Shown here in pieces: positions 1 to 59,639 of a stretch of DNA of 59,639 nucleotides. Numbering within the stretch: position 1 is the stretch's first letter; every line of letters begins with the position of its first letter. The notes beneath the pieces were generated by a model, which ran no database searches, had not been told where the DNA came from, and saw only the letters and a list, made by a program, of their open reading frames with translations. Position numbers and translations under genes: made by a program. Source of the DNA: a virus; UHGV virus genome UHGV-1364324; one strand, given 5' to 3'.

Positions 1-90
1 CTACAGGCGCAGGTGTCGCAACAGGAGCGGCTACAGGCGCAGGTGTCGCAACAGGAGCGGCTACAGGCGCAGGTGTCGCGCCGATCGCAG
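1..90. repeat. 30-bp tandem repeat (3 copies) continuous in phase with copies at 59571..59639; circular/terminal junction of the record
   Basis: Unit caggagcggctacaggcgcaggtgtcgcaa; about 5.3 copies when the ends are joined; encodes (AAPVATPAPV)n on the minus strand. Confidence 0.9.
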
Positions 91-2811: not shown

Positions 2812-2860
2812 GTGGCTAAGGTTACGAGTCAGGTTGCAATGTGTCAAGAATTATTTTATG
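2812..2860 (-). promoter_or_regulatory. sigma70-type promoter of conserved phage family (UP + TTGACA, 17-bp spacer, TAACCT)
   Basis: rc: AAAATAATTCTTGACA N17 TAACCT; drives 1990..2778. Confidence 0.5.
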
Positions 2861-4702: not shown

Positions 4703-4743
4703 TGGTAATCTGTTTAGAATTATTTTAAATATAAGGTAAACTC

Positions 4744-5911: not shown

Positions 5912-8266
5912 ATGAAGGGATTACTGAACCGTAAACAATGGGTTTGCTGGAGGCTGGAGCATATTGAAGGTCGCCCAAAACCCACGAAAGTACCTTACAG
6001 CCCAGTCCACGGGTACAAGGCCAGTACAACAAATCCTGCTGACTGGTCTGACTATCATACTGCGCTGGGTATGGCGCAAATACATGGTATGTCTGGTGTC
6101 GGTTTCGTGTTCACTGAAAACGATCCCTATTTTTTCATTGACGTCGATAACTGTCTGGTAGATCAGGCTACAGCCACGTGGTCACCACTGGCACACGAAT
6201 TTGTAAACCGTTTCCCCGGCGCTTATACCGAAGTAAGCCAGTCAGGAACAGGTTTACATATCATCTGTGCGTATAGCAGTTTACCGGAAGGGTTCAACAG
6301 CCTTAACGATCAGAAAACCGGGCTTGAAATGTACTGGCGCGATCGCTTTGTTGCCATGACATTAACCGGGAATGGTGAAGTTGACGTTGATTATACACAG
6401 GGTGTTCATGACTCGATCGCCCGGTATGGTCGAATTCGTTCTGATCGTTCCGCACACTGGACCAGCGCACCCTGTGATGAATGGTCAGGACCAGAAGATG
6501 ACGAAGAACTGATCGCAATGGCGTTGAAGTCATCCAGTGCGGCTTCAGTTTTTGGTAATAAGGCATCGTTTGCGGATCTGTGGACGGCAAATGTTGAAAA
6601 ATTGTCTGTCAGTTATGCGAGCGATCAGGGGAAAGATTATAACGGAAACGCAGCTGATGCGGCTCTGTGTTCACATCTTGCTTTCTGGACAGGTAAAAAC
6701 TGTGAACGAATGGAGCGGTTATTTAATAAATCAGCGCTTGTTCGTGGTAAATGGACAGATCGAAAAGATTACCGTGAGAGAACAATATTAGGTGCAGTTG
6801 AACGTTGTGATACCGTTTATCGTGCACAACCCGCGCTGACCCCAGAACTGATTAACGCTGTTACGCCAGCGCCTACAGTTGCGGTAACGGGTAGTGTTCC
6901 GGCGTATATGTCAATCAGACCCGGTGAAGGTGCTTATGGGGCTAACCATACGGTTAACGCATCCACTTTCGTTAATAACTATTATCCAAATAACACACTG
7001 GTTTTTGTACAGCAGCAACCGTACCGCTTTAACGGTCGCGTCTGGGAACGTGTGACAGAAGATGAATTAAAACATCAGTTATCTATGGCAATGCTGGCAA
7101 GCGAACCAAAAGCTGATGTGATTAATGGTACATATAAAGTTTTAAGCTATCTATTTACCCGTGCCGATCGTGAGTTAGGCACCTGGCCGGGCGTTGATGT
7201 TTCACACTATATCGTGTGTCAAAACGGGATCCTTGATGTTCACACCAGAAAATGTGAACCGCACAATCCCGATTTCTTCACCACCAGTATTTTACCATAC
7301 AGTTACGATCCGTTTGCACAGGCACCCGTTTTTCAGGATTTTCTGAATACGACGCTGGAAGGCGATCAGGAACGTATTGCACTGCTGCAGGAATGGCTGG
7401 GGTATATGCTGGTTAACTCCTATGACTATCAGAAAGCGATGTTACTGATCGGTGCGCCTCGTTCCGGTAAGGGTACTATCGGCCAGATTATTCAGGCGCT
7501 GGTAGGTGATGAAGCCTATGCCGGGATTACGCTTGAAGGGCTGGCAAGTGATGCTGTTCTGGAAACTGTGCTTGATAAATCGGTGTTATTTATTGGTGAT
7601 GCTCACAGTGTTTCCGGGCCTGACCGTAACAGGATCCTCGACCGTTTTAAATCGATAACCGGTGCTGATGCGATACCTGTTAACCGTAAATATAAAGGAG
7701 CCTGGAACGGTCGTTTACCGGGTCGTATGACACTTGCCGCGAACAATATTCCGGCCTTTGCTGATGATTCTGGTGCAATGGCAAACCGCTTGCTGATCCT
7801 GCCGTTTAATATCTCGTTTTTGGGTCGTGAAGATATCACGCTGAAATCACGGTTAATGAAAGAATTACCGGGGATCTGTAACTGGGCTATCGAAGGTCTT
7901 GAACGGTTGCGTAAAAATAACCGCTTCACTGAACCAACAGCAAGCATTGTTGAGCGTCAGGAAATCATAGATCAGCAGGCACCGCTGATGGCTTTCGTTC
8001 GCGACTGCTGCGAGCTGTTACCTGATAGCGTAACCCACACTGAAGAACTTTTCTGTAGATATAAGATGTGGAAGATGCAGGAAGGTGGTGCGACGATGAC
8101 TAAAACCGCTTTCAGCCGGGCGTTTAAAAGTATGTTGCGTGGCCGCGTGGTTAAAGATGTGGTGTCTGTTAACGGTCAGCGGGCGAACGGTTTCCGGGGA
8201 GTGCGTTTACTCCCTTTCCAGCCAGCGGGTAACGTTGTTCCTTTCGCGCCCGCCAGTAATAGTTAA
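5912..8266 (+). CDS. bifunctional primase-polymerase (AEP/PrimPol N-term) + SF3/D5-like helicase
   Basis: FFIDVDNC primase-pol motif; Walker A GAPRSGKGT in C-terminal half; 784 aa. Confidence 0.8.
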   Translation: MKGLLNRKQWVCWRLEHIEGRPKPTKVPYSPVHGYKASTTNPADWSDYHTALGMAQIHGMSGVGFVFTENDPYFFIDVDNCLVDQATATWSPLAHEFVNRFPGAYTEVSQSGTGLHIICAYSSLPEGFNSLNDQKTGLEMYWRDRFVAMTLTGNGEVDVDYTQGVHDSIARYGRIRSDRSAHWTSAPCDEWSGPEDDEELIAMALKSSSAASVFGNKASFADLWTANVEKLSVSYASDQGKDYNGNAADAALCSHLAFWTGKNCERMERLFNKSALVRGKWTDRKDYRERTILGAVERCDTVYRAQPALTPELINAVTPAPTVAVTGSVPAYMSIRPGEGAYGANHTVNASTFVNNYYPNNTLVFVQQQPYRFNGRVWERVTEDELKHQLSMAMLASEPKADVINGTYKVLSYLFTRADRELGTWPGVDVSHYIVCQNGILDVHTRKCEPHNPDFFTTSILPYSYDPFAQAPVFQDFLNTTLEGDQERIALLQEWLGYMLVNSYDYQKAMLLIGAPRSGKGTIGQIIQALVGDEAYAGITLEGLASDAVLETVLDKSVLFIGDAHSVSGPDRNRILDRFKSITGADAIPVNRKYKGAWNGRLPGRMTLAANNIPAFADDSGAMANRLLILPFNISFLGREDITLKSRLMKELPGICNWAIEGLERLRKNNRFTEPTASIVERQEIIDQQAPLMAFVRDCCELLPDSVTHTEELFCRYKMWKMQEGGATMTKTAFSRAFKSMLRGRVVKDVVSVNGQRANGFRGVRLLPFQPAGNVVPFAPASNS

Positions 8267-8304
8267 AATAATTCTTGACGGATTACAAGGAAGTGATCCA
8301 TACT
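8263..8304 (+). promoter_or_regulatory. conserved-family promoter (UP + TTGACG, 18-bp spacer, CATACT)
   Basis: TTAAAATAATTCTTGACG at 8263..8280 overlapping primase 3' end; AT-rich region follows. Confidence 0.45.
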
Positions 8305-11153: not shown

Positions 11154-11568
11154 AAAACAGCGTCAGGAACTACGCATGAAGTTTGGCGGGTATTGTGCTT
11201 ATTGTGGTCAGTTGTTGCCGGAAAAAGGCTGGCACGCTGACCATGTTGAGGCTGTTTACCGTGTTCTTAAACAGGATATGAAAGCCGCTAAAAAAGGTTT
11301 ATGGAAACTTAAAGCAACCGGAAAACACTACCGGGAACAAAATGATACGCTTGAAAACTTATTCCCAGCTTGTGCACCTTGTAACCTGTTCAAAACGACG
11401 TTCACCCTTGAACAATTCCGTAAACAGATCGGTGAGCAAATTAGCCGCGCCAGGTCGTACAGCGTCAATTTCCGCACTGCTGAACGCTTCGGACTGGTTC
11501 AGGTAGTTGAACGCCCCGTGGTATTCTGGTTCGAGATCTACCCTTTCATAGTTCAAAATAATTCTTGA
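11140..11568 (+). CDS. HNH endonuclease
   Basis: CAYCG ... HADH ... N ... CAPCN. Confidence 0.75.
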   Translation: MKLSKKQRQELRMKFGGYCAYCGQLLPEKGWHADHVEAVYRVLKQDMKAAKKGLWKLKATGKHYREQNDTLENLFPACAPCNLFKTTFTLEQFRKQIGEQISRARSYSVNFRTAERFGLVQVVERPVVFWFEIYPFIVQNNS

Positions 11569-11593
11569 CACATTGCAAACCCTCCACCATAAT
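11554..11593 (+). promoter_or_regulatory. conserved-family promoter (UP + TTGACA, 17-bp spacer, CATAAT)
   Basis: CAAAATAATTCTTGACA at 11554..11570; -10 CATAAT at 11588..11593; drives 11628 gene. Confidence 0.55.
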
Positions 11594-12386: not shown

Positions 12387-12495
12387 ATTCCCAGTAGGAT
12401 TCAGAACGGTGGAAGAACGCCGTTCATTTTTCAAAACAATTATCGGCGCGTTTTTATTTGGCGGGCTGATACTTCTGTTGAGGGCGGTATTATGA
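12379..12495 (+). CDS. possible small membrane peptide (38 aa)
   Basis: ATGAATAA overlap with previous stop; hydrophobic C-terminus; low confidence. Confidence 0.25.
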   Translation: MNKFPVGFRTVEERRSFFKTIIGAFLFGGLILLLRAVL

Positions 12496-13304
12496 CCAGA
12501 GAAGAACTGCTGAACATCATTGAAACCGATCACGTTCAGTGTGGCGAGGCTGCTGCACTGGCCCGCATGGCGCTGGCAGCAATGGACAGCGAGCCGGTTT
12601 TCACTCTTGATGCGGCGCGTAAGTTGAAAGAGGGCAATTACCAGCTCTATCGCCACGCGCAGCCAGCGCCGGTAGTCTTTGATGCTATCGACACAAACTT
12701 GATTGACGCCCTTCGCCTGGTTCAGTGCATGCTGGATGACTATCGCGAGCGCAATTATGGTGACGCACAAGGTTGGATTAGACATATCAATACGCACATG
12801 AGCGACTACACTGAAGCGCATGGTGATGATGCCTACTCGGTTCTGCATAACTTAATTACAGCCTCCCCGCAGTCACCCGGCAGTGAACCCGCTACCGTGC
12901 CGGAGGAAATAACTTCGGCAATCGAAGGATTGAAACAGTCGCTGGTTGACTGCAACCGCTACAACTACTGCTTTGATGCAGTTACGCGTGTAGAAAATGC
13001 CTGCCGCGCCGCAATGCTCCAGGCTGGCAACTCTCCGGTAATTCAAGAAAGTTGCAGTGCTCAATTTGGAAATTTTCAGCATTACTGGCATTCAAAGGGT
13101 TACGTGATGGTGCCGAAGGAACCGACAGAGGCCATGTGTGACATCCGTCATATCGGTGTCGATGTCTATTGCGGAATAACTGACGACAATGAGTATTACT
13201 CGATAGGTGGCGCTGATGCTGCAAAAGTCTGGAAAGCCATGCTCGCAGCTGCACCGCAGGCACCCGGCATTGAACCGTCCACCGTGCCGGAGGTTAAACC
13301 ATGA
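12492..13304 (+). CDS. hypothetical protein with internal PGxEPxTVPE repeat
   Basis: 270 aa; about 45-bp direct repeat at 12862..12905 and 13249..13295. Confidence 0.5.
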   Translation: MTREELLNIIETDHVQCGEAAALARMALAAMDSEPVFTLDAARKLKEGNYQLYRHAQPAPVVFDAIDTNLIDALRLVQCMLDDYRERNYGDAQGWIRHINTHMSDYTEAHGDDAYSVLHNLITASPQSPGSEPATVPEEITSAIEGLKQSLVDCNRYNYCFDAVTRVENACRAAMLQAGNSPVIQESCSAQFGNFQHYWHSKGYVMVPKEPTEAMCDIRHIGVDVYCGITDDNEYYSIGGADAAKVWKAMLAAAPQAPGIEPSTVPEVKP

Positions 13305-15993: not shown

Positions 15994-16012
15994 GCGGGGC
16001 GCTCAACCCCGC
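15994..16012. terminator. hairpin between convergent genes (weak, no U-run)
   Basis: GCGGGG cgctcaa CCCCGC. Confidence 0.3.
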
Positions 16013-16938
16013 TGCATATCCGTGTAAAACTGCATAATCACATCGTCCGGGAACGCGTTAAAATCACACTGCGGGTTCATCATCATGGCGAACGGTCGAA
16101 CGTATTCGCGGATCTCCGGCGTTACCGTAGCCTGTGTGGTCATCGCGTTAAACAGCGTACCTGTCCCTTCATAACGCTCTGTCAGCGTCACCATTACATC
16201 AAGCACATCAGAAGGCCATTCCCGCCCGATATGATTGTGTAGCCAGTTTTCCGTAATGTTGTACCCGGTGGTGTTCCGGCGCAGAGTGTACAGCGCGTTA
16301 TTGAAGTTGCCGCACAGCGTTTCAAACCGTTTCCAGACGTCGAAGCCATAGCGGATCACTACATCCTTTTGACTCATTACCCGTGGTGTTGCGTCCGGTT
16401 CTGCCTGTGGTAAACCGTCGCGGATCACGCCGTCCATATAGTTCAGAACATCAGGATACCAGCCGCTGTCGATCCGGTTCAATACCCATGACTCAGTGAC
16501 CCGGCGATTCAGCCCGGCGTTACGCAGCACGTCAACCGCCTTAAATGTCCCGCCACACTGATCCCTGAACCGTTCCCAGACGTCATAGCCGTAGATCACC
16601 TGTTCAACTTCCTTATCCACCATCCGCAACTGCTGAAAATAATTATCGCTGAACCGACGATGAGGCAACGCCGCACGCAGGGTATCAACGCTGACGCTTC
16701 TGTTCAGTACGTGCGGCTGCGTTGGCGGTTGCGTGGTGATGACCACAGGGTTCAGATCCAGTTCCCCGCCCGTTACCGTACTGAGGATTAGATTTAATGT
16801 TTCTGCCCGTGGTAGCCGTTTTCCTGTCATCCATTCAGTAAAACGACCCTTGTTTACGTTGCAACCCATCATGTTCAGATAATTTACAGCGTTGTCTGCT
16901 GAACCAAAGTGACGAGCAAACTTATCGAATAAATTCAT
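16003..16938 (-). CDS. HTH (XRE-like) protein with two tandem about 60-aa C-terminal repeats; candidate regulator binding adjacent iterons
   Basis: N-terminal HTH-like segment; duplicated YG(Y/F)DVW(E/K)RF... domains; divergent from iteron region. Confidence 0.5.
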   Translation of the reverse strand: MNLFDKFARHFGSADNAVNYLNMMGCNVNKGRFTEWMTGKRLPRAETLNLILSTVTGGELDLNPVVITTQPPTQPHVLNRSVSVDTLRAALPHRRFSDNYFQQLRMVDKEVEQVIYGYDVWERFRDQCGGTFKAVDVLRNAGLNRRVTESWVLNRIDSGWYPDVLNYMDGVIRDGLPQAEPDATPRVMSQKDVVIRYGFDVWKRFETLCGNFNNALYTLRRNTTGYNITENWLHNHIGREWPSDVLDVMVTLTERYEGTGTLFNAMTTQATVTPEIREYVRPFAMMMNPQCDFNAFPDDVIMQFYTDMQRG

Positions 16939-17027
16939 TGTTGTTACACCTTACCAGATGTGATTAGGTCAAGTTTACGCCTTATATGAAACAAGTACAA
17001 CTCTTATATGCAACAGGATCAAAGTTG

Positions 17028-17260
17028 GCCTTGTTACAACTGGTAGGATGAAAGAGAAACCTTGTTACATCTGGTAAGCTGAAACATAGATTGCTAAAGT
17101 TCTATGTAAACCATCCAAGCACATCTGGTAAGCTGAAACTAAAAATCCTTATATATTAGTTATTTATCTTTTTATAGTATAGATAGTATAGATAGTATAG
17201 ATATATAAGAAATTATAAAGTAGGTATAGTTAGGCTAGTTAAACTGGTAAGCTGAAACAA
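17028..17260. repeat. iteron array: 4-5 copies of CTGGTA(A/G)G(C/A)TGAAA(C/G), plus CCTTGTTACA repeat
   Basis: Copies at 17040, 17071, 17125, 17244 and degenerate 17383; paralogous region at 34330..34560. Confidence 0.7.
17170..17225. repeat. AT-rich tract with (TAGTATAGA)x3 tandem repeat and ATATAAGAAATTATAAAGTAGGTA box
   Basis: Near-identical about 45-bp box at 34493..34535. Confidence 0.7.
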
Positions 17261-17403
17261 GGTAAACTAGGAGGGATTAAAAAGTTATAGGAAAATACCA
17301 TACTATCTATGATTTTCAATGTTATCAACGACTTAAAGTATGTTGTAGACAATCCGTGATAAATTGTGCAAAATTAACCAAAATGGTAAGAGGAAACTAG
17401 CTT

Positions 17404-18039
17404 ATGAAAATTTCAGATCGTGCGAAACGTGCCAGTCTGGAATTAAGTCCCGAACAGCTTAACTTCGCCAACCTGTGGCTAGATCGCGCAAATAACGGTC
17501 TGAGTAACGCCCAGTGCGTTTTAAGGTCTTATCCGGGTCATAACACTGAGGCGGCTGCAGCGACGACCGCACACCGTCTGCTGTCGAATACGAAGGTGTT
17601 AAACTATCTCGACGCAATGGGAAGTCATGCGCTGGAATCTGTCGGTGAATCGTTATCGTCCCGTGTCGAATGGTGGAAGCGTGCGGCAAGTACCGCTGAA
17701 GAATTGCTGGAACCGTTTTGCAAACGTGTAGTGATCCCCGGCGAGGACAACGACGAATGCAAACACCTGTGGGTGAACAGCACTGACGATATTCCGAACC
17801 ACCTGCAGCAATACGTGGTGCGTTACAAACGCTACCTGTTAGGCGGGTACACGCTGGAGACGCGCGAACTGTTTGATCCTAAGACGCGGGCGAAAGCATC
17901 GGAGAACCTGGATAAAATCACCGGGAATAGCGTTGAGCGTGTGGAATTGTCAGGGGCGGTCGGTAATCTGGTTCAGACGGTGCCGGACGGTGCCAACATT
18001 GAAGATATCGCCCAGTTGTATCAGAAGGCGTTGAAGTAA
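17404..18039 (+). CDS. terminase small subunit (Terminase_2/SPP1 G1P-like)
   Basis: LELSPEQLNFANLWL ... NAQCVLRSY ... AHRLLSN pattern of TerS family. Confidence 0.55.
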   Translation: MKISDRAKRASLELSPEQLNFANLWLDRANNGLSNAQCVLRSYPGHNTEAAAATTAHRLLSNTKVLNYLDAMGSHALESVGESLSSRVEWWKRAASTAEELLEPFCKRVVIPGEDNDECKHLWVNSTDDIPNHLQQYVVRYKRYLLGGYTLETRELFDPKTRAKASENLDKITGNSVERVELSGAVGNLVQTVPDGANIEDIAQLYQKALK

Positions 18040-18111: not shown

Positions 18112-18160
18112 TTTAAAAAAGAAGCCCGGACGTTACCGGGCAACCTTTATTAATTTTTCA
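18112..18160. terminator. bidirectional intrinsic terminator
   Basis: GCCCGG acgtta CCGGGC flanked by A-run upstream and T-rich downstream. Confidence 0.55.
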
Positions 18161-20914: not shown

Positions 20915-20960
20915 AGTCTATCGGGTAATTCGTAATCCGTCAAGAATTATTTTAAACCGT
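20915..20960 (-). promoter_or_regulatory. conserved-family promoter (UP + TTGACG, 17-bp spacer, TAGACT)
   Basis: rc TTAAAATAATTCTTGACG; overlaps 3' end of 20918..21124. Confidence 0.55.
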
Positions 20961-22781: not shown

Positions 22782-22830
22782 AGCATAACCGTGCATCTGC
22801 AATTCGTCAAGAATTATTTTAACCAATACC
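22782..22830 (-). promoter_or_regulatory. conserved-family promoter (UP + TTGACG, 17-bp spacer, TATGCT)
   Basis: 74-bp module 22755..22828 identical to 26655..26728. Confidence 0.6.
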
Positions 22831-26680: not shown

Positions 26681-26729
26681 CATGTTCAAAGCATAACCGT
26701 GCATCTGCAATTCGTCAAGAATTATTTTA
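26681..26729 (-). promoter_or_regulatory. conserved-family promoter (duplicate of 22782..22830 module)
   Basis: Identical 74 bp including RBS region. Confidence 0.6.
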
Positions 26730-28615: not shown

Positions 28616-28664
28616 ACAGTACACGTCCATGTGTAATCCGTCAAGAATTATTTTGAAACGTCGA
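28616..28664 (-). promoter_or_regulatory. conserved-family promoter (UP + TTGACG, 17-bp spacer, TACTGT)
   Basis: rc CAAAATAATTCTTGACG. Confidence 0.5.
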
Positions 28665-30337: not shown

Positions 30338-30390
30338 TTGCAATACTGCGTCCTGTAGTGTAATCTGTCAAGAATTATTTATAACCAACG
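30338..30390. promoter_or_regulatory. overlapping divergent promoters: minus-strand conserved-family promoter (TTGACA at rc 30371..30366) and putative plus-strand TTGCAA-N17-TAATCT
   Basis: Minus promoter drives dut; plus candidate would drive the 30402 gene; hexamers interleave on opposite strands. Confidence 0.4.
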
Positions 30391-34242: not shown

Positions 34243-34273
34243 CGTCTTACCCTCAGTTCGTTTCGTTGTGATA

Positions 34274-34322
34274 ACTATACCTCCATACCTGCAATTCGTC
34301 AAGAATTATTTTAAATCTTCTT
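34274..34322 (-). promoter_or_regulatory. conserved-family promoter (UP + TTGACG, 17-bp spacer, TATAGT)
   Basis: Promoter + leader (34245..34310) duplicated at 42290..42355. Confidence 0.6.
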
Positions 34323-34329
34323 TCATCTT

Positions 34330-34560
34330 ACCAAACTGGTAAGCCGTAACTCAGCGTCATAGATGACATAGATAGTATGAAAGAGTTATACAGATCTGGT
34401 AAGCGGTAACATAGATTGCATAGTTTGCGTATACTTATTTTTAACAAATTTATCTTCTAACTTACTGTTTTTATTATCTTTTACATACTTATCATAGATA
34501 GTATAGATTTATATAAGAATTATAAAAGTAAGGTAAGTAAGGGTTAGTAGGGTAAGATCT
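34330..34560. repeat. second iteron/AT-rich region paralogous to 17028..17260
   Basis: CTGGTAAGCCGTAAC (34336), CTGGTAAGCGGTAAC (34396), ATAGATTGC box, ATAGATAGTATAGATTTATATAAGAATTATAAAAGTAAGGTA, GGTAAG repeats. Confidence 0.65.
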
Positions 34561-34630
34561 AAAAGATAAGGAAAACAGCATGAAATGTATGATACTATGC
34601 ACCCGTGGTTAACTCGCGAGGAAACACCCA

Positions 34631-35041
34631 ATGATCGAAGTTAAAGTTAACAAGGTCGACTCACAGTTACGGATGGTTTTTGGCTGGGGTTCGATTTGTA
34701 AAAAACGTAATCAGGAAACGGGTCAGTTAGAAATTTACACTGACACCGACAACGAACAATTCCCTGAAGATGTAACGTTAAAAGCATGGCTGGATTTCAT
34801 GAACGGCGATCAGCGGATCATGGATAACATGCACAACGAACAACCCGTGGGTAAAGTGGTGTTCGCTTTTCCGATGACCGAAGATATCGCCGCAAGTTTT
34901 GGACTGGTTGAAAAACTGGATCAAACAGGCGTTATTGTTGGTACGCTGATCACCGACGATGACATTCTGAAAAAATTTCAGTCTGGCGAATATACCGGGT
35001 ATAGTATCGGTGGAACTGCTTACTATGAGGACGTTGAATAA
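34631..35041 (+). CDS. putative prohead protease (S78-like) or head assembly protein
   Basis: 136 aa; His (DNMHNE) and Ser (GYSIGG) candidates; first gene of head operon. Confidence 0.3.
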   Translation: MIEVKVNKVDSQLRMVFGWGSICKKRNQETGQLEIYTDTDNEQFPEDVTLKAWLDFMNGDQRIMDNMHNEQPVGKVVFAFPMTEDIAASFGLVEKLDQTGVIVGTLITDDDILKKFQSGEYTGYSIGGTAYYEDVE

Positions 35042-38945: not shown

Positions 38946-39356
38946 ATGGCAATCACAGTTGAAGGTATCCGCAATTTAATTAACGTTCCTGATATCAGTG
39001 ATGACACAATTCAGTGGTACATCGATAACGGGTACACCAATCCGTTAAGTATCTGTATCGCGCTTTGTGATTACATGGCTTCACTGGTCAGTAACGATAC
39101 TGATATTAAAGTTGGCCCCATCTCACTTTCTGGTAGTGACGCCGCTAAAGCCTGGAACTTGCTTAAAAAAGATTTTATTTTGCGTTTGAATACCGGGACG
39201 GATCCGGGTGGTTCAGGATTTGGCTTAGGGTTTGGTGTCGGCGGTATTACATTAACTGGTCAGGGTATGCCCCCTGCTATTCAGCGTGGGCAGTTTGATA
39301 ACCCACCTATCACGCTTGAGAACAACACTACACGCATTAATGAAGGTGAGCAGTAA
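38946..39356 (+). CDS. head-tail connector/adaptor (gp6-like)
   Basis: 136 aa; first gene after head module. Confidence 0.4.
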   Translation: MAITVEGIRNLINVPDISDDTIQWYIDNGYTNPLSICIALCDYMASLVSNDTDIKVGPISLSGSDAAKAWNLLKKDFILRLNTGTDPGGSGFGLGFGVGGITLTGQGMPPAIQRGQFDNPPITLENNTTRINEGEQ

Positions 39357-39730
39357 TGTCCGATCAACGTAACCGTGTTTTAGCAGGTGTTACACGCGCA
39401 CTCGCAGAAGTGGGTGAAGATCTGACTGTATCGCGTACTGTAACCACACCAAACCCCAGCAACCCCACGCTACCCGGTGTGACAGAAACTACGGTTCACA
39501 GTTGCCGTGGTTATGTTTACCCACTGGAAAAATGGGATCCGTCAACCATGACGCGCAATACCGTGACAATGGTCATTATGGATACGAAATCTTTTGACCC
39601 GCCTTTTGTGCCTGAACGTGGTGATGTGGTAACTGATAACCGTGGGCGTGAATACAGGTTGTTAGACCGTCAAAATCCGCGTTTGCTGGGTGATGATATG
39701 GCGTTTATTCATCCTACAGGCGCTGCATAA
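39356..39730 (+). CDS. head closure / head-tail joining protein
   Basis: 124 aa; ATGA coupling. Confidence 0.35.
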   Translation: MSDQRNRVLAGVTRALAEVGEDLTVSRTVTTPNPSNPTLPGVTETTVHSCRGYVYPLEKWDPSTMTRNTVTMVIMDTKSFDPPFVPERGDVVTDNRGREYRLLDRQNPRLLGDDMAFIHPTGAA

Positions 39731-42311: not shown

Positions 42312-42360
42312 ACTATACCGCCCTGTCTGCAATCCGTCAAGAATTATTTTAAATACCTTG
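42312..42360 (-). promoter_or_regulatory. conserved-family promoter (UP + TTGACG, 17-bp spacer, TATAGT)
   Basis: Promoter + leader nearly identical to 34245..34310. Confidence 0.6.
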
Positions 42361-57424: not shown

Positions 57425-57464
57425 TGTTTATCGCCTCAGTAAGTTTTAAATAATTCTATACGGT

Positions 57465-59348
57465 TTACCGTAACGGCGCAACCAGCTTTTCAGCCTCTTT
57501 GATATAAAACTCATAGTTCAGCGTTGCCCGGTTGAAGCGCTGCATGTTGTTACACTCTGTTACTGTCCACCCCTTGCATACCGCCATGCGACGTTCTGGT
57601 GCGTTAGGATCGATCTTCAGTGCTTTAGCCAGCGGTGGCATGACTTTTATTAACGGTGCACCATCAGTGCTGACATAATAGCGGGTAATATTTTGAACCT
57701 GCTGATCGCCACACGTTAGTTTGCTGTTACGGGGAACTTTCGTCACCAGCATGAAATCGTGAATATCTTCATGTGATGTTATAAACTTACGAATATCTTT
57801 ACCGTATACCAGCGCGGCTTCAGCAGCTTTTGCAACAACCTGCATACTGTGGTTCTGATGCCAACCCAGGTCGCCGTTAGGGTTTGCATCAGTCTTAGTA
57901 GTGTGACAGTACGCACCTTTACGTTTAACTTTCTTACCGCCTTCATAAACAGCGATGTAGTTGTTTACATCACGAATAAACATCGCGTCATAAATGGCTT
58001 CTTCCAGTTCCAGACGTGTCAGTTTTTCCCACGCGTGACGAACCTGTTCAACCTGTCCTGTAAACACACGGGGGACGTATACTGTAAGACCATCAGTGTT
58101 AGCCTGAATCATAGACAGACCCGGAATTTTCAGAAGTTCTTCAGCTAACATACACAACAGTAACTGACCGTTGATAGTGATCGACATTGTATACGCCGGG
58201 TCATAGAACGGGCTGTATACGTTATTTGAGTCACCGTAAACACCGTTAAGTGCGAGTTTAAGCATTGCGTTTTCTGGTGTGCCTTTTGGATAACCAGAAC
58301 GCATATCGTAAACATTTTTATAAATAGTACAGAACTGTTTACCCAAATGAGCCGGGAATAATTCATTACTGATCGCCAGGTTAGGGTAAAAACTTGCAAC
58401 ATCCAGATCGATAATAACGTAATTTTCAGTTGATCTAATGGTTTGTGATTCAATCGATCCGTGGATGCCACCTGTGCCAAAAACAAACGAAAACCCATTG
58501 ACAGTAGCATTTAGATCAGTAAACACACCTTTTGTTTCTGTAATAATCTGCTGACGTAGCCAGTTCAGTACGCGATTAAATTCACTTTGTTCAAAACGGA
58601 TGTAAGGAAATATAACATCGTTAAGTGCAATAGATGATCTGATAGTTTGCCGTGGTCTTTTGCCTGGTCCTGGGTGATAACATTCAATGCCTGATTTTTC
58701 CAGTTCCATAATGAAATAATCTTTACCGATTTTAGTATCATTGTGGTTCATGAAATTTCGCTTATACTTCTCGGAAAGTTCACGGCGAAAATCTATCAAC
58801 TTTTTACTGTGACCATGAAACATCAAAGTAGCTTTAAGGTCGTGTATCAAATACTGACGAAGTTTATCAATTTGTTCATCGGTCAAATAAGTACCCGGTG
58901 AGAATGGCAGATCTTCAATATTTTCCATTCTCATATTGAACTCAAGCGTTTTTAAACTTGTTCTTTTTGCCTGGTTATCAAAGTGGTGAATCTTATAAAG
59001 ATCGATTTGTGGAACAATCCAGTCACTTTCCCACACCATGTGAGCAAAACGATTATCATCGCCACAGTTAATGATAGCATCACCTTTACGATAAATATCA
59101 GCATTAGTGATGTACATGATATTATTGAGTATCGAATGTTGAACAGGGTAGTCATAACCAATGTTGTTATAACCCACTTCTTCAGCACCATGTTCACGAA
59201 GAAATTCAGTGAACATATAATACGCCTGACGATCATCGCGGCGATGCGAGATTTCAAATATATACGGCGTTCCCGTTAAAGCGTGAATAGCACCAAATAA
59301 CCACACGTTAGGGTAATTTTCAATATCGTAAATGTAAGCGTCTGACAT
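57465..59348 (-). CDS. DNA polymerase with 3'-5' exonuclease domain (family-B-like motifs)
   Basis: Exo I YIYDIENYP; pol motif A DLDVASFYPN; motif B KLALNGVYG; motif C-like ANTDGL. Confidence 0.7.
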   Translation of the reverse strand: MSDAYIYDIENYPNVWLFGAIHALTGTPYIFEISHRRDDRQAYYMFTEFLREHGAEEVGYNNIGYDYPVQHSILNNIMYITNADIYRKGDAIINCGDDNRFAHMVWESDWIVPQIDLYKIHHFDNQAKRTSLKTLEFNMRMENIEDLPFSPGTYLTDEQIDKLRQYLIHDLKATLMFHGHSKKLIDFRRELSEKYKRNFMNHNDTKIGKDYFIMELEKSGIECYHPGPGKRPRQTIRSSIALNDVIFPYIRFEQSEFNRVLNWLRQQIITETKGVFTDLNATVNGFSFVFGTGGIHGSIESQTIRSTENYVIIDLDVASFYPNLAISNELFPAHLGKQFCTIYKNVYDMRSGYPKGTPENAMLKLALNGVYGDSNNVYSPFYDPAYTMSITINGQLLLCMLAEELLKIPGLSMIQANTDGLTVYVPRVFTGQVEQVRHAWEKLTRLELEEAIYDAMFIRDVNNYIAVYEGGKKVKRKGAYCHTTKTDANPNGDLGWHQNHSMQVVAKAAEAALVYGKDIRKFITSHEDIHDFMLVTKVPRNSKLTCGDQQVQNITRYYVSTDGAPLIKVMPPLAKALKIDPNAPERRMAVCKGWTVTECNNMQRFNRATLNYEFYIKEAEKLVAPLR

Positions 59349-59427: not shown

Positions 59428-59639
59428 TCAGTAACCGTTACCCGTGAGAAACCCCGGCGCGGGAGTGGTCATAACCATGTAACCCTGATCGATCATCGCC
59501 TGATCAGTCCAGCCACCTGCAACAAACTGTTCGTAAGTCGCACCAGCGGCTTTTTCAGTCATCACTTTCACAGGAGCGGCTACAGGCGCAGGTGTCGCAA
59601 CAGGAGCGGCTACAGGCGCAGGTGTCGCAACAGGAGCGG
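59428..59639 (-). CDS. 3' part of the wrapping SSB-like gene (C-terminal tail ...KVMTEKAAGATYEQFVAGGWTDQAMIDQGYMVMTTPAPGFLTGNGY*)
   Basis: No stop from 59639 down to TGA at rc 59430..59428; frame matches the 1..679 part through the codon spanning positions 1/59639/59638 (GCC). Confidence 0.5.
   Translation of the reverse strand, partial: APVATPAPVAAPVATPAPVAAPVKVMTEKAAGATYEQFVAGGWTDQAMIDQGYMVMTTPAPGFLTGNGY
59571..59639. repeat. 30-bp tandem repeat copies (2.3) at window end, continuing at 1..90
   Basis: Same 30-bp unit; joins position 1 seamlessly in repeat phase. Confidence 0.9.

What the first reader, a model, noticed from the sequence alone, without database searches (positions are those of the whole stretch)
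16003..17403. Divergent HTH regulator beside an iteron-rich AT-rich region upstream of TerS
The 465-bp intergenic region between the leftward HTH gene (16003..16938) and rightward TerS (17404) holds four exact or near-exact copies of CTGGTAAGCTGAAAC (17040, 17071, 17125, 17244) and a degenerate copy at 17383. It also holds a CCTTGTTACA direct repeat, (TAGTATAGA)x3 tandem repeats, and a very AT-rich tract. The HTH protein has an XRE-like N-terminus followed by two tandem repeats of about 60 aa (YG[YF]DVW[EK]RF...). The architecture suggests a DNA-binding protein with two repeated binding or effector domains acting on the iterons. It could be a late-gene switch, a replication origin with its initiator, or a pac region for the adjacent TerS. 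The whole region is duplicated elsewhere in the genome (see next finding).
Basis: partly seen in the sequence, partly recalled or inferred. Interest (0 to 1): 0.75.

Follow-up and report, generated by a model that had tools for sequence, protein, structure and literature searches.

The report
Phage multi-HTH regulator and its operators
A Klebsiella phage of the 9NA group encodes an uncharacterised protein with three DNA-binding domains beside the array of repeats it most likely recognises, and this probably forms a transcription switch in front of the DNA-packaging and head genes, although a replication origin is not excluded.

Summary
The 465-bp gap between a leftward 311-aa gene and rightward TerS holds three exact and three degenerate copies of CTGGTAAGCTGAAAC, one of them inverted. 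It also holds a 9-bp tandem array and one of the two most AT-rich tracts in the genome.

The motif core occurs eight times in the window. All eight lie in this gap or in a second gap (34243-34630) before the head genes.

The protein has three lambda-repressor/XRE-like HTH domains and belongs to a tiny family restricted to 9NA-like phages. It always sits divergent from TerS. In distant phages its two domain types are separate adjacent small genes with palindromic sites at their own promoter.

Each phage lineage has its own repeat sequence. That type recurs in its unlinked head gap in four lineages. Sasha, Sergei and Solent are the exception.

Repeat type tracks this protein, the most diverged shared protein. 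It does not track TerS (84-91% identical) or the primase.

My best reading (about 0.5) is an operator array for an autoregulated regulator that gates TerS and head-gene transcription. The main rival (about 0.2) is an SPP1-like origin pair. A pac role for the repeats is unlikely.

Nothing was shown experimentally. This is a new variant of a known kind, of moderate interest.

The parts
16003..16938 (-). Gene for the 311-aa regulator. Domains: N-terminal HTH (residues 1-57, nt 16768-16938); conserved LPHRRF linker; central HTH repeat 1 (about residues 105-178, nt 16405-16626); central HTH repeat 2 (about residues 186-262, nt 16153-16383); conserved C-terminal domain of about 50 aa (nt 16006-16152).
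16943..16957 (-). Operator O0: inverted repeat copy (CTGGTAAGGTGTAAC) over the Shine-Dalgarno/5' leader of the regulator gene.
   Evidence: A repeat copy lies next to the regulator gene's start in the other lineages too.
16970..17013 (+). Two tandem 22-bp units (CAAGTTTACGCCTTATATGAAA / CAAGTACAACTCTTATATGCAA). This is the candidate promoter region of the leftward regulator gene. Its function is unassigned.
   Evidence: family D6. Conserved in KP13-27 and recognisable in L015.
17029..17054 (+). Operator O1 (CCTTGTTACA + CTGGTAGGATGAAAG): degenerate here, closer to consensus in KP13-27.
17060..17085 (+). Operator O2 (CCTTGTTACAT + CTGGTAAGCTGAAAC): exact copy, followed by CATAGATTGC.
   Evidence: Invariant between the window and KP13-27.
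17121..17139 (+). Operator O3 (ACAT + CTGGTAAGCTGAAAC) at the left edge of the AT tract.
17140..17243 (+). AT-rich tract (82% A+T). It contains the 9-bp tandem array (ATAGTATAG x3.9, 17174-17207) and -10-like elements (TATAAA at 17214, TATAGT at 17225-17230). It is either the candidate rightward TerS promoter region or a DNA-unwinding element.
   Evidence: The array and the T-rich run before it are conserved in every lineage and in both intergenic regions. No consensus sigma-70 promoter was found.
17244..17258 (+). Operator O4: exact copy, 13 nt downstream of the -10-like TATAGT.
   Evidence: In all six lineages examined an own-type repeat lies 0-25 nt after the -10-like element.
17383..17397 (+). 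Operator O5 (ATGGTAAGAGGAAAC): degenerate copy over the TerS Shine-Dalgarno sequence.
   Evidence: 9NA and L025 have a full own-type palindrome at the same place.
17404..18039 (+). Small terminase subunit (TerS): a solitary rightward late gene flanked by leftward genes.
   Evidence: PHROG 51, E 4e-9. Annotated as TerS in relatives. 84-91% identical across lineages.
18124..18141 (.). GC-rich hairpin after TerS. It is a strong terminator for the leftward early block and a weaker one for TerS.
34274..34313 (-). Consensus early sigma-70 promoter (TTGACG-N17-TATAGT with an A/T UP-like element) for the leftward gene block. It abuts the first head-region operator.
34320..34350 (.). Head-region operator Oh1: a head-to-head pair (TTTCATCTTACCA-AA-CTGGTAAGCCGTAAC).
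   Evidence: A site lies at the same place in 9NA, L034, PDP46, Bas82 and the virome contigs, each of its lineage's own type.
34396..34410 (+). Head-region operator Oh2 (CTGGTAAGCGGTAAC), followed by CATAGATTGC.
34411..34630 (+). AT-rich tract with the 9-bp array (34493-34507), then a conserved leader up to the first head gene (XkdF-like, 34631..35041).
   Evidence: 96-98% identical among the Klebsiella phages and 71-73% to 9NA and Sasha.

Best explanation
The repeats are operators for the adjacent 311-aa protein, which is an autoregulated, sequence-specific transcription regulator built from three HTH domains.

Inferred recognition. Each operator is composite. It has short inverted arms (TTACCA / TGGTAAG in this phage) that differ between lineages, probably read by the more variable N-terminal HTH of a dimer. 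It also has a flanking tail, CTGWAAC in this phage, 9NA and the Sasha group and ACMAAAC in L025, probably read by the highly conserved central HTH.

Inferred action. Six operators span the gap between the regulator's own gene and TerS.
- One covers the regulator's own 5' leader (autoregulation).
- Three lie upstream of the AT-rich promoter region.
- One lies just downstream of a -10-like element.
- One covers the TerS ribosome-binding site.

Occupancy therefore gates TerS transcription, most likely by repressing or delaying it. Three more operators sit between a consensus early leftward promoter and the head operon. Together they form an early-to-late switch for packaging and head genes.

The sign of regulation (repression or activation) is the least certain step.

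Shown: the anatomy, the fold, the distribution and the co-variation. Inferred: DNA binding, promoter positions and the regulatory outcome.
For: 1. The motif is confined to two intergenic regions. There are 8 of 8 core matches there and 11 loose matches against 1.15 expected.

2. All three repeated protein units fold as XRE/lambda-repressor-type HTH domains. The profile has a weak sequence link to a three-HTH XRE protein. The N-terminal and central domain profiles cross-match.

3. Stand-alone relatives in three metagenomic phage contigs encode the two domain types as separate neighbouring small genes. Palindromes ATACCG-N3-CGGTAT lie at their own promoter. In L018 the palindrome sits between TTGCAA-N17-TATAAT, a classic autorepressor layout.

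4. Lineage-specific repeats:
- window, KP13-27 and L015: TGGTAAG-NN-G-N-AAC;
- 9NA: AACAC-N3/4-GTGTTATCTGWAAC;
- L025: AACAC-N4-GTGTTAKACNAAAC;
- L016: GATACCAGAAGTGTATC;
- Sasha, PDP46 and Bas82: TAGTGCA-N4/5-TGTGCATTA.
The own type recurs at the head-gene locus, which lies tens of kb from the regulator gene, in the window/KP13-27 group, 9NA, L025 and in PDP46, Bas82 and four virome contigs.

5. The regulator is the most diverged protein shared with 9NA (42%) and Sasha (30%). TerS is 89% and 84% identical, and the primase 92% and 88%. The variable patches of TerS are discordant with repeat type.

6. The repeats are the best-conserved blocks of the gap between the window and KP13-27.

7. In the six lineages whose right half was examined, a repeat follows the -10-like element. 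In all seven, a repeat lies near the regulator's start. A repeat at the TerS ribosome site was seen in the window (degenerate copy), KP13-27 (a weaker version), 9NA and L025.

8. Positional precedent: late-gene regulators such as RinA are encoded directly upstream of terS and act on the promoter between the two genes (PMC3152322, PMC3753634).
Against: - No transcription start, binding or expression data exist for any 9NA-like phage in the literature I could reach.
- No convincing sigma-70 promoter could be assigned in either direction in the TerS gap.
- TerL, portal and other late blocks lack the repeats, so this is not a general late switch.
- Sasha, Sergei and Solent are viable with head-region sites of a foreign type. 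The head sites therefore cannot be essential activator sites in those phages.
- PDP46-like phages also place a consensus early-type promoter between the module and the head genes.
- The regulator gene and most of the repeats are physically linked, so part of the co-variation could come from mosaic inheritance.
- The layout (AT tract, then direct repeats, then an inverted copy at the gene start) is also the classic layout of iteron origins.
Confidence: 0.5

Rival explanations
1. Replication origin(s) with their initiator. The repeats are iterons bound by the 311-aa protein, and the adjacent AT tract is the unwinding element. The head-region copy would be a second origin or a fork barrier, as with SPP1 oriL/oriR. 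Transcription from the embedded promoter might help to open the origin.
For: - The layout is a textbook iteron origin: AT tract, three direct repeats, then an inverted copy over the start of the adjacent DNA-binding protein gene.
- The two AT tracts are the most AT-rich 100-nt windows of the genome.
- No other repeat cluster that could serve as an origin was found in the window.
- SPP1 has two origins made of direct repeats plus an AT-rich unwinding element, both bound by gp38. One of them lies in the intergenic segment between the gene-7 head-morphogenesis gene and the scaffold/capsid genes, which is the position of the second locus here (PMC6316719).
- Tolerance of foreign head-region sites in Sasha fits a dispensable second origin.
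Against: - The protein has XRE-type HTH domains and no similarity to known initiator families. It has no homologue on plasmids.
- Its small relatives look like promoter autorepressors.
- The gene lies outside the replication module and lacks the consensus early promoter carried by the early gene blocks, including those of the replication module.
- Repeat spacing is irregular (31, 54, 119, 139 bp) and orientations are mixed. Copies sit on two ribosome-binding sites.
- The phage encodes a P4-alpha/D5-like primase-helicase. Such proteins usually recognise their own origin (my knowledge, not tested here).
- GC skew only follows gene orientation.
Confidence: 0.22
2. Packaging recognition region. 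The repeats form the pac recognition site, read either by TerS or by the 311-aa protein acting as an accessory specificity factor. This would resemble lambda cosB R sites or SPP1 pacL just upstream of the TerS gene.
For: - The position is immediately upstream of TerS, as for lambda cosB and SPP1 pacL. SPP1 pac overlaps the gene-1 promoters and ribosome site (PMC6316719).
- 9NA uses pac-directed headful packaging (PMC8954984, citing Zeng et al. 2019).
- Several database records and assemblies begin or break inside this gap.
Against: - The putative DNA-binding region of TerS is nearly invariant across lineages with three unrelated repeat types. Its few variable patches are discordant with repeat type: the window resembles Sasha and KP13-27 resembles 9NA.
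- The same repeats occur before the head genes, where a pac site has no role.
- Record starts follow an annotation convention, and breaks are expected at sequences shared by the two gaps.
- I could not read where Zeng et al. map the 9NA cleavage region.
Confidence: 0.05
3. Pure positive late activator (RinA/ArpU-like logic). The protein is needed to switch on the otherwise silent TerS and head promoters, and it has no repressive role.
For: - The gene sits directly upstream of TerS, like RinA-family activators (PMC3152322, PMC3753634).
- The candidate promoters lack a recognisable -35 element, as is usual for activator-dependent promoters.
- Upstream sites lie at a roughly conserved distance (71-83 bp) from the 9-bp array in the head regions.
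Against: - Operators lie downstream of the -10-like element and on ribosome-binding sites. Those are repressor positions.
- Sasha-type Salmonella phages keep foreign sites before their essential head genes.
- TerL and portal blocks have no sites.
- Relatives show autorepressor layouts.
Confidence: 0.12

Closest known systems
XRE/Cro-C1-type autoregulators: R-M controller (C) proteins, anti-CRISPR-associated Aca repressors, HigA/MqsA antitoxins
   Same: - The sites are palindromic and lie at or next to the protein's own gene.
- Stand-alone relatives have an operator between the -35 and -10 elements of their own promoter.
   Different: - There are three HTH domains in one chain (two in the Salmonella and E. 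coli phages) plus a conserved C-terminal domain.
- No Pfam HTH model is matched.
- There are nine sites at two loci instead of one or two operators.
- The sites are composite: inverted arms plus a directional tail.
RinA / ArpU / LtrC / Alt late activators of Gram-positive phages
   Same: The gene lies directly upstream of terS, and the target DNA lies between the regulator gene and terS. Together they control packaging and morphogenesis genes (PMC3152322, PMC3753634).
   Different: - There is no sequence or family relationship.
- The orientation is divergent.
- Site positions suggest repression at least at TerS.
- Only two of at least six late transcription blocks carry sites.
SPP1 gp38 with oriL and oriR; iteron replicons such as pSC101 and P1
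   Same: - Repeats sit next to an AT-rich tract.
- One cluster lies at the binding protein's gene. A second lies between the gp7-like head-morphogenesis gene and the scaffold/capsid genes (PMC6316719).
- An inverted copy covers the start of the protein's gene, as in rep autoregulation.
   Different: - The protein fold is XRE-HTH, not a known initiator fold.
- Repeat spacing is irregular.
- The gene lies outside the replication module.
- No replication data exist.
phi29 p4 early/late switch (from my own knowledge, not checked in a paper here)
   Same: Multiple sites lie in an AT-rich gap between divergent early and late promoters, so that one protein represses one direction and controls the other.
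   Different: The protein is unrelated, and there is no evidence here for a p6-like partner or for activation.
POU-type bipartite HTH proteins
   Different: These are eukaryotic proteins. The resemblance is of fold and logic only.

Membership tests
XRE / Cro-C1 HTH superfamily | Sequence match to Pfam HTH_3, HTH_19, HTH_31 or related models above threshold | tested here: not met
   The whole protein has no Pfam family at E <= 0.1. There are only indirect links: the family profile hits a three-HTH XRE protein at E 7e-4, and a small relative hits HTH_3 at E 0.03.
XRE / Cro-C1 HTH superfamily | Four- to five-helix lambda-repressor-like fold containing a helix-turn-helix | tested here: met
   [not shown]
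XRE / Cro-C1 HTH superfamily | Sequence-specific binding to (pseudo)palindromic operators | not testable with these tools
   Inferred only, from co-variation of repeats with the protein and from the palindromic site architecture.
Iteron-type replication origin with initiator | Cluster of repeats adjacent to an AT-rich unwinding tract, next to the binding protein's gene | tested here: met
Iteron-type replication origin with initiator | Binding protein belongs to a known initiator family (Rep_3/RepA winged-helix, phage O, replisome organiser, DnaA-like) | tested here: not met
   No Pfam, PHROG-function or PDB sequence match. The fold matches are to transcription regulators. There is no plasmid homologue.
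Iteron-type replication origin with initiator | Replication starts here and depends on the protein | not testable with these tools
   GC skew is uninformative because it follows gene orientation.
pac / cosB-type terminase recognition site | Site specificity tracks the TerS DNA-binding domain | tested here: not met
   TerS is 84-91% identical across lineages with unrelated repeats, and its variable patches are discordant with repeat type.
pac / cosB-type terminase recognition site | Single locus at or in the terminase genes where packaging cleavage occurs | tested here: inconclusive
   The repeats also occur before the head genes.
RinA/ArpU/LtrC/Alt late activator families | Sequence membership in one of those families | tested here: not met
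   The Pfam and PHROG scans return no such family.
RinA/ArpU/LtrC/Alt late activator families | Encoded next to terS and acting on the promoter between the regulator gene and terS | tested here: inconclusive
   Adjacency is met in every relative examined. Action on a promoter could not be tested.

The most novel reading that the evidence does not exclude
The two repeat-plus-AT-tract modules are transcription-coupled replication origins (an oriL/oriR-like pair). They would be run by a previously unrecognised class of initiator built from tandem XRE-type HTH domains. Placing one module at TerS would couple genome copy number, late transcription and the onset of packaging in 9NA-like phages.
Probability: 0.15. 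Interest if true: 0.7.

Novelty: new variant of a known kind. Interest (0 to 1): 0.45.

Why it matters
Phages of the 9NA group infect Salmonella, E. coli and Klebsiella. Some have been isolated with phage therapy or biocontrol in mind, and the group is now part of the BASEL collection. Their gene regulation is essentially unknown: the BASEL paper speaks of 'limited knowledge about their biology' (PMC11990801).

This locus gives the first concrete, testable regulatory circuit for the group. It supplies a candidate regulator, nine mapped candidate binding sites and a natural set of specificity variants in at least five lineages.

The matched changes of protein and sites, together with the split-gene relatives, make it a useful small system for studying how multi-HTH proteins evolve new DNA specificities.

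If the origin reading is right instead, the locus would define a new initiator type.

In practice, the region matters for engineering these phages and for setting genome start coordinates.

Tried and rejected
- **TerS as the repeat binder:** rejected, because TerS conservation is discordant with repeat type.
- **Primase-helicase as the binder:** unlikely. It is 92% and 88% identical across lineages whose repeats differ.
- **Sigma-54 promoter at TGG...TTGCA next to the repeats:** the spacing is off by one and the element is absent at most copies (read directly from the sequence).
- **Canonical sigma-70 promoters:** only weak 9-of-12 matches at the chance rate in the TerS gap. I could not assign a transcription start.
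- **Structured RNA:** no Rfam hit at E <= 1.
- **Family assignment:** Pfam, PHROG function, PDB sequence and plasmid searches gave nothing. A word-index search with the N-terminal domain alone found nothing.
- **GC skew for an origin:** it only mirrors gene orientation.
- **k-mer scan for other repeat clusters:** noisy. The apparent cluster at about 31 kb dissolved on inspection.
- **ACCCGTGG before late genes as a late-promoter mark:** the word occurs 31 times in the genome, so it carries no statistical weight.
- **Conserved mini-ORFs in the leaders:** substitutions between the window and KP13-27 are all non-synonymous, so coding is doubtful.
- **Zeng et al. 2019 (9NA packaging):** could not be read. 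The BstA paper on 9NA holds nothing about this locus.
- **Sasha's annotated 'direct tandem repeat':** it is a (PPVARAE)n linker, not a domain duplication.
Full report
**What the window is.** The window is a complete phage genome of about 59.6 kb. Its two ends share the same 30-bp tandem repeat, so the assembly is circular with an overlap. It is 95-97% identical around the finding to Klebsiella phages VLCpiS10a and Kpn BU9, and it is related to Salmonella phages 9NA and Sasha.

The genome has an unusual layout. The rightward late genes (TerS, TerL, portal, head morphogenesis, head and tail genes) are separated from one another by blocks of small leftward genes. Most of these blocks are fronted by a near-identical consensus sigma-70 promoter, AAAATAATTCTTGACg-N17-TATAgT.

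The gap 16939-17403 lies between a leftward 311-aa ORF and rightward TerS. CTGGTAAGCTGAAAC is exact at 17071, 17125 and 17244, and degenerate at 17040 and 17383. An inverted copy lies at 16943-16957.
- With up to 3 mismatches there are 11 matches in the window, against 1.15 expected.
- The core GGTAAG-NN-G-N-AA occurs eight times in the genome. Five are here and three are in 34320-34410.
- The CCTTGTTACA prefix, the 9-bp array (17174-17207) and the AT tract (82% A+T) are all confirmed.
- The two AT tracts are the most AT-rich windows of the genome.

The second locus (34243-34630) lies between a leftward early block and the head operon (XkdF-like protein, scaffold, capsid). It shares the repeats, the array and the AT tract at about 70% identity. 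It has no copy of the gene.

**The protein.** Pfam finds nothing, and PHROGs places it in a family of unknown function.
- The N-terminal domain and the repeats share the same four-helix pattern. Their profiles cross-match weakly.

The protein therefore carries three tandem HTH domains, a conserved LPHRRF linker and a conserved C-terminal domain of about 50 residues.

The two repeats are 41.5% identical. The duplication is specific to the Klebsiella lineage; 9NA, Sasha, Bas82 and PDP46 have one central domain.

The family is tiny. An exhaustive profile search of 1.84 billion representatives found 15 proteins at E <= 0.001 and 7 at E <= 1e-10.

In three metagenomic phage contigs the N-type and central-type domains are separate neighbouring small genes. 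This is a Rosetta-stone relationship.

**Comparative anatomy.** In every relative examined the gene lies divergent from TerS across a gap of 420-615 bp. Every such gap is full of repeats, but the repeat sequence is lineage specific:

| Lineage | Repeat type |
|---|---|
| Window, KP13-27, L015 | TGGTAAG-NN-G-N-AAC |
| 9NA | AACAC-N3/4-GTGTTATCTGWAAC |
| L025 | AACAC-N4-GTGTTAKACNAAAC |
| L016 | GATACCAGAAGTGTATC |
| Sasha, Bas82, PDP46, four virome contigs | TAGTGCA-N4/5-TGTGCATTA, often followed by GCTGTAAA |

The sites are short palindromes with a directional tail. The tail is CTGWAAC in most lineages.

By contrast, the 9-bp array, the T-rich run before it and the leader up to the start codon are conserved in all lineages.

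**Co-variation.** The decisive comparison is the head-gene locus, which lies tens of kb from the regulator gene. Its two sites are of the phage's own type in the window and KP13-27, in 9NA, in L025/L034, and in PDP46, Bas82 and four virome contigs. Repeats embedded in the conserved right half of the TerS gap also switch to the local type.

The exception is Sasha (and, by similarity, Sergei and Solent). Its head locus carries window/9NA-like sites.

I then asked which protein tracks these changes.
- TerS is 84-91% identical throughout. Its few variable patches group the window with Sasha and KP13-27 with 9NA, which is discordant with repeat type.
- The primase-helicase is 92% and 88% identical to those of 9NA and Sasha.
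- The 311-aa protein is 83% identical in KP13-27 (same repeats), 42% in 9NA and 30% in Sasha. It is the most diverged protein shared by the three genomes.

Between the window and KP13-27, the repeats are the best-conserved blocks of a gap that is 82% identical by BLAST.

**Function.** Several points favour a transcriptional operator array.
- The fold is that of a transcription regulator.
- The small relatives have palindromes of the same general form, ATACCG-N3-CGGTAT, at their own promoters. In L018 one lies between TTGCAA-N17-TATAAT, and in L017 and L020 they flank the -10 region.
- In the six lineages whose right half was examined, one repeat lies 0-25 nt after a -10-like TATAGA/TATAGT/TATAAA element in the TerS gap. 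In all seven, one repeat lies at the regulator's own leader. A repeat on the TerS ribosome site was seen in the window (degenerate copy), KP13-27 (a weaker version), 9NA and L025.
- Late regulators of Gram-positive phages sit in the same place relative to terS (PMC3152322, PMC3753634).

I therefore favour an autoregulated regulator that gates TerS, probably by repression or delay, and modulates the divergent early and late promoters before the head operon.

The caveats are real.
- No promoter could be assigned.
- TerL and portal have no sites.
- Sasha tolerates foreign head sites.
- PDP46-like phages carry an extra early-type promoter before the head genes.

**Rivals.** The origin reading is serious.
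- The order (AT tract, then direct repeats, then an inverted copy at the gene start) is the classic iteron-replicon layout.
- No other candidate origin was found in the window.
- SPP1 has two repeat-plus-AT-tract origins bound by one protein. One of them lies between the gp7 gene and the scaffold/capsid genes, exactly where the second locus lies here (PMC6316719).

Against it stand the XRE fold, the autorepressor relatives, the irregular spacing, the gene's position outside the replication module and the absence of plasmid homologues.

A pac role for the repeats is unlikely because TerS does not track them and because they recur before the head genes. I could not read where 9NA's cleavage region was mapped.

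**Verdict.** This is a real, conserved and evolving protein-plus-site system. I found no description of it in the annotations or the literature I could search. It is a new variant of a known kind (an HTH regulator with an operator array), of moderate interest, with a minority chance of being a new type of origin-initiator pair.

Noticed in passing
window 2835-2858(-), 4704-4727(-), 8265-8288(+), 11555-11578(+), 20931-20954(-), 22798-22821(-), 26706-26729(-), 28632-28655(-), 30359-30382(-), 34290-34313(-), 42328-42351(-), 57447-57470(+): A family of about 12 near-identical early promoters, AAAATAATTCTTGACnnATTnCA, occurs across the genome; the copy at 34274-34302 reads TTGACG-N17-TATAGT. The promoters stand in front of the rightward replication/early genes and most of the leftward small-gene blocks. 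The same element is present in 9NA and Sasha. The 311-aa gene has none.
   Followed up: partly
window 17404-42100: The late genes are fragmented. TerS, TerL, portal, head morphogenesis and the head operon are each separated by blocks of small leftward genes with their own early promoters and terminators. Every late block therefore needs its own rightward promoter or read-through. Only the TerS and head blocks carry the repeat module.
   Followed up: partly
window 1-79 and 59570-59639: The same 30-bp tandem repeat (CTACAGGCGCAGGTGTCGCAACAGGAGCGG) lies at both ends of the window. The record is therefore a circular assembly cut inside a repeat. Sasha has an annotated tandem repeat in a gene at roughly the corresponding genome position (gp63).
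   Followed up: no
L001 1589-1870 (Sasha gp81); L012 (PDP46); L008 (Bas82); L043-L048: In the Sasha lineage the regulator carries a (PPVARAE/PVARVE)n linker between the central HTH and the C-terminal domain. Its copy number varies between isolates: about 13 in Sasha, 6 in PDP46, 3 in Bas82 and 4-6 in the virome contigs. This looks like a length-variable spacer.
   Followed up: partly
L017 1-640, L018 1-900, L020 1-850: In distant metagenomic phages the two domain types are separate small genes. Palindromes ATACCG-N3-CGGTAT lie over their own promoter. In four of the five contigs looked up, the contig ends within about 420 nt upstream of this gene. The SP-062 and SP069 assemblies and several GenBank records also break or start inside the equivalent gap. 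The cause could be assembly breaks at shared repeats or real DNA ends; it is unexplained.
   Followed up: partly
L007 15794-16133 (Sasha head region): Sasha, and by similarity Sergei and Solent, have head-region sites of the Klebsiella/9NA type (CTGGTAAGACGAAAC, CTGGTTATCTGTAAC). Their TerS gap and regulator are of the TAGTGCA type. This is a mosaic mismatch that these phages evidently tolerate.
   Followed up: partly
window 22841, 26777, 34601 (+) and 17352: A(C)CCGTGG, preceded by a -10-like hexamer, lies 11-45 nt upstream of the TerL, portal and head-gene starts, with a CCGTGA variant at TerS. The word is common in the genome (31 copies), so its significance is unclear.
   Followed up: partly
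window 34581-34613 and 17309-17359: Short leader ORFs end just before the head gene (MKCMILCTRG*) and TerS (MIFNVINDLKYVVDNP*). Counterparts exist in 9NA, Sasha and KP13-27. The substitutions between close relatives are all non-synonymous, so these are more probably conserved DNA or RNA elements than peptides.
   Followed up: partly
L009 13731-14143; L014 (PDP46 17520-17960); L029-L033: In the E. coli-type relatives an extra gene (DUF723, with a variable GTTGAACCAGTAACGACTGCT tandem repeat) has been inserted between the repeat module and the head operon. It brings its own consensus early-type promoter.
   Followed up: no
L019 1-260: At least eight direct repeats of CAGTAGGTTTATGACACGC, followed by an AT-rich stretch, lie upstream of a weak N-domain homologue (P0021) and a parA-parB/korB operon. 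This looks like a plasmid or phage-plasmid origin or centromere and is probably unrelated to the finding.
   Followed up: no
window 12859-12906 and 13246-13293: A 48-nt direct repeat (83% identical) lies inside ORF 12492..13304. It reflects an internal duplication of a proline-rich segment of that protein.
   Followed up: no
window 39000-39500 compared with ON602746 39342-39429: VLCpiS10a has an annotated tRNA-Ser downstream of the capsid gene. ARAGORN finds no tRNA anywhere in this window.
   Followed up: partly
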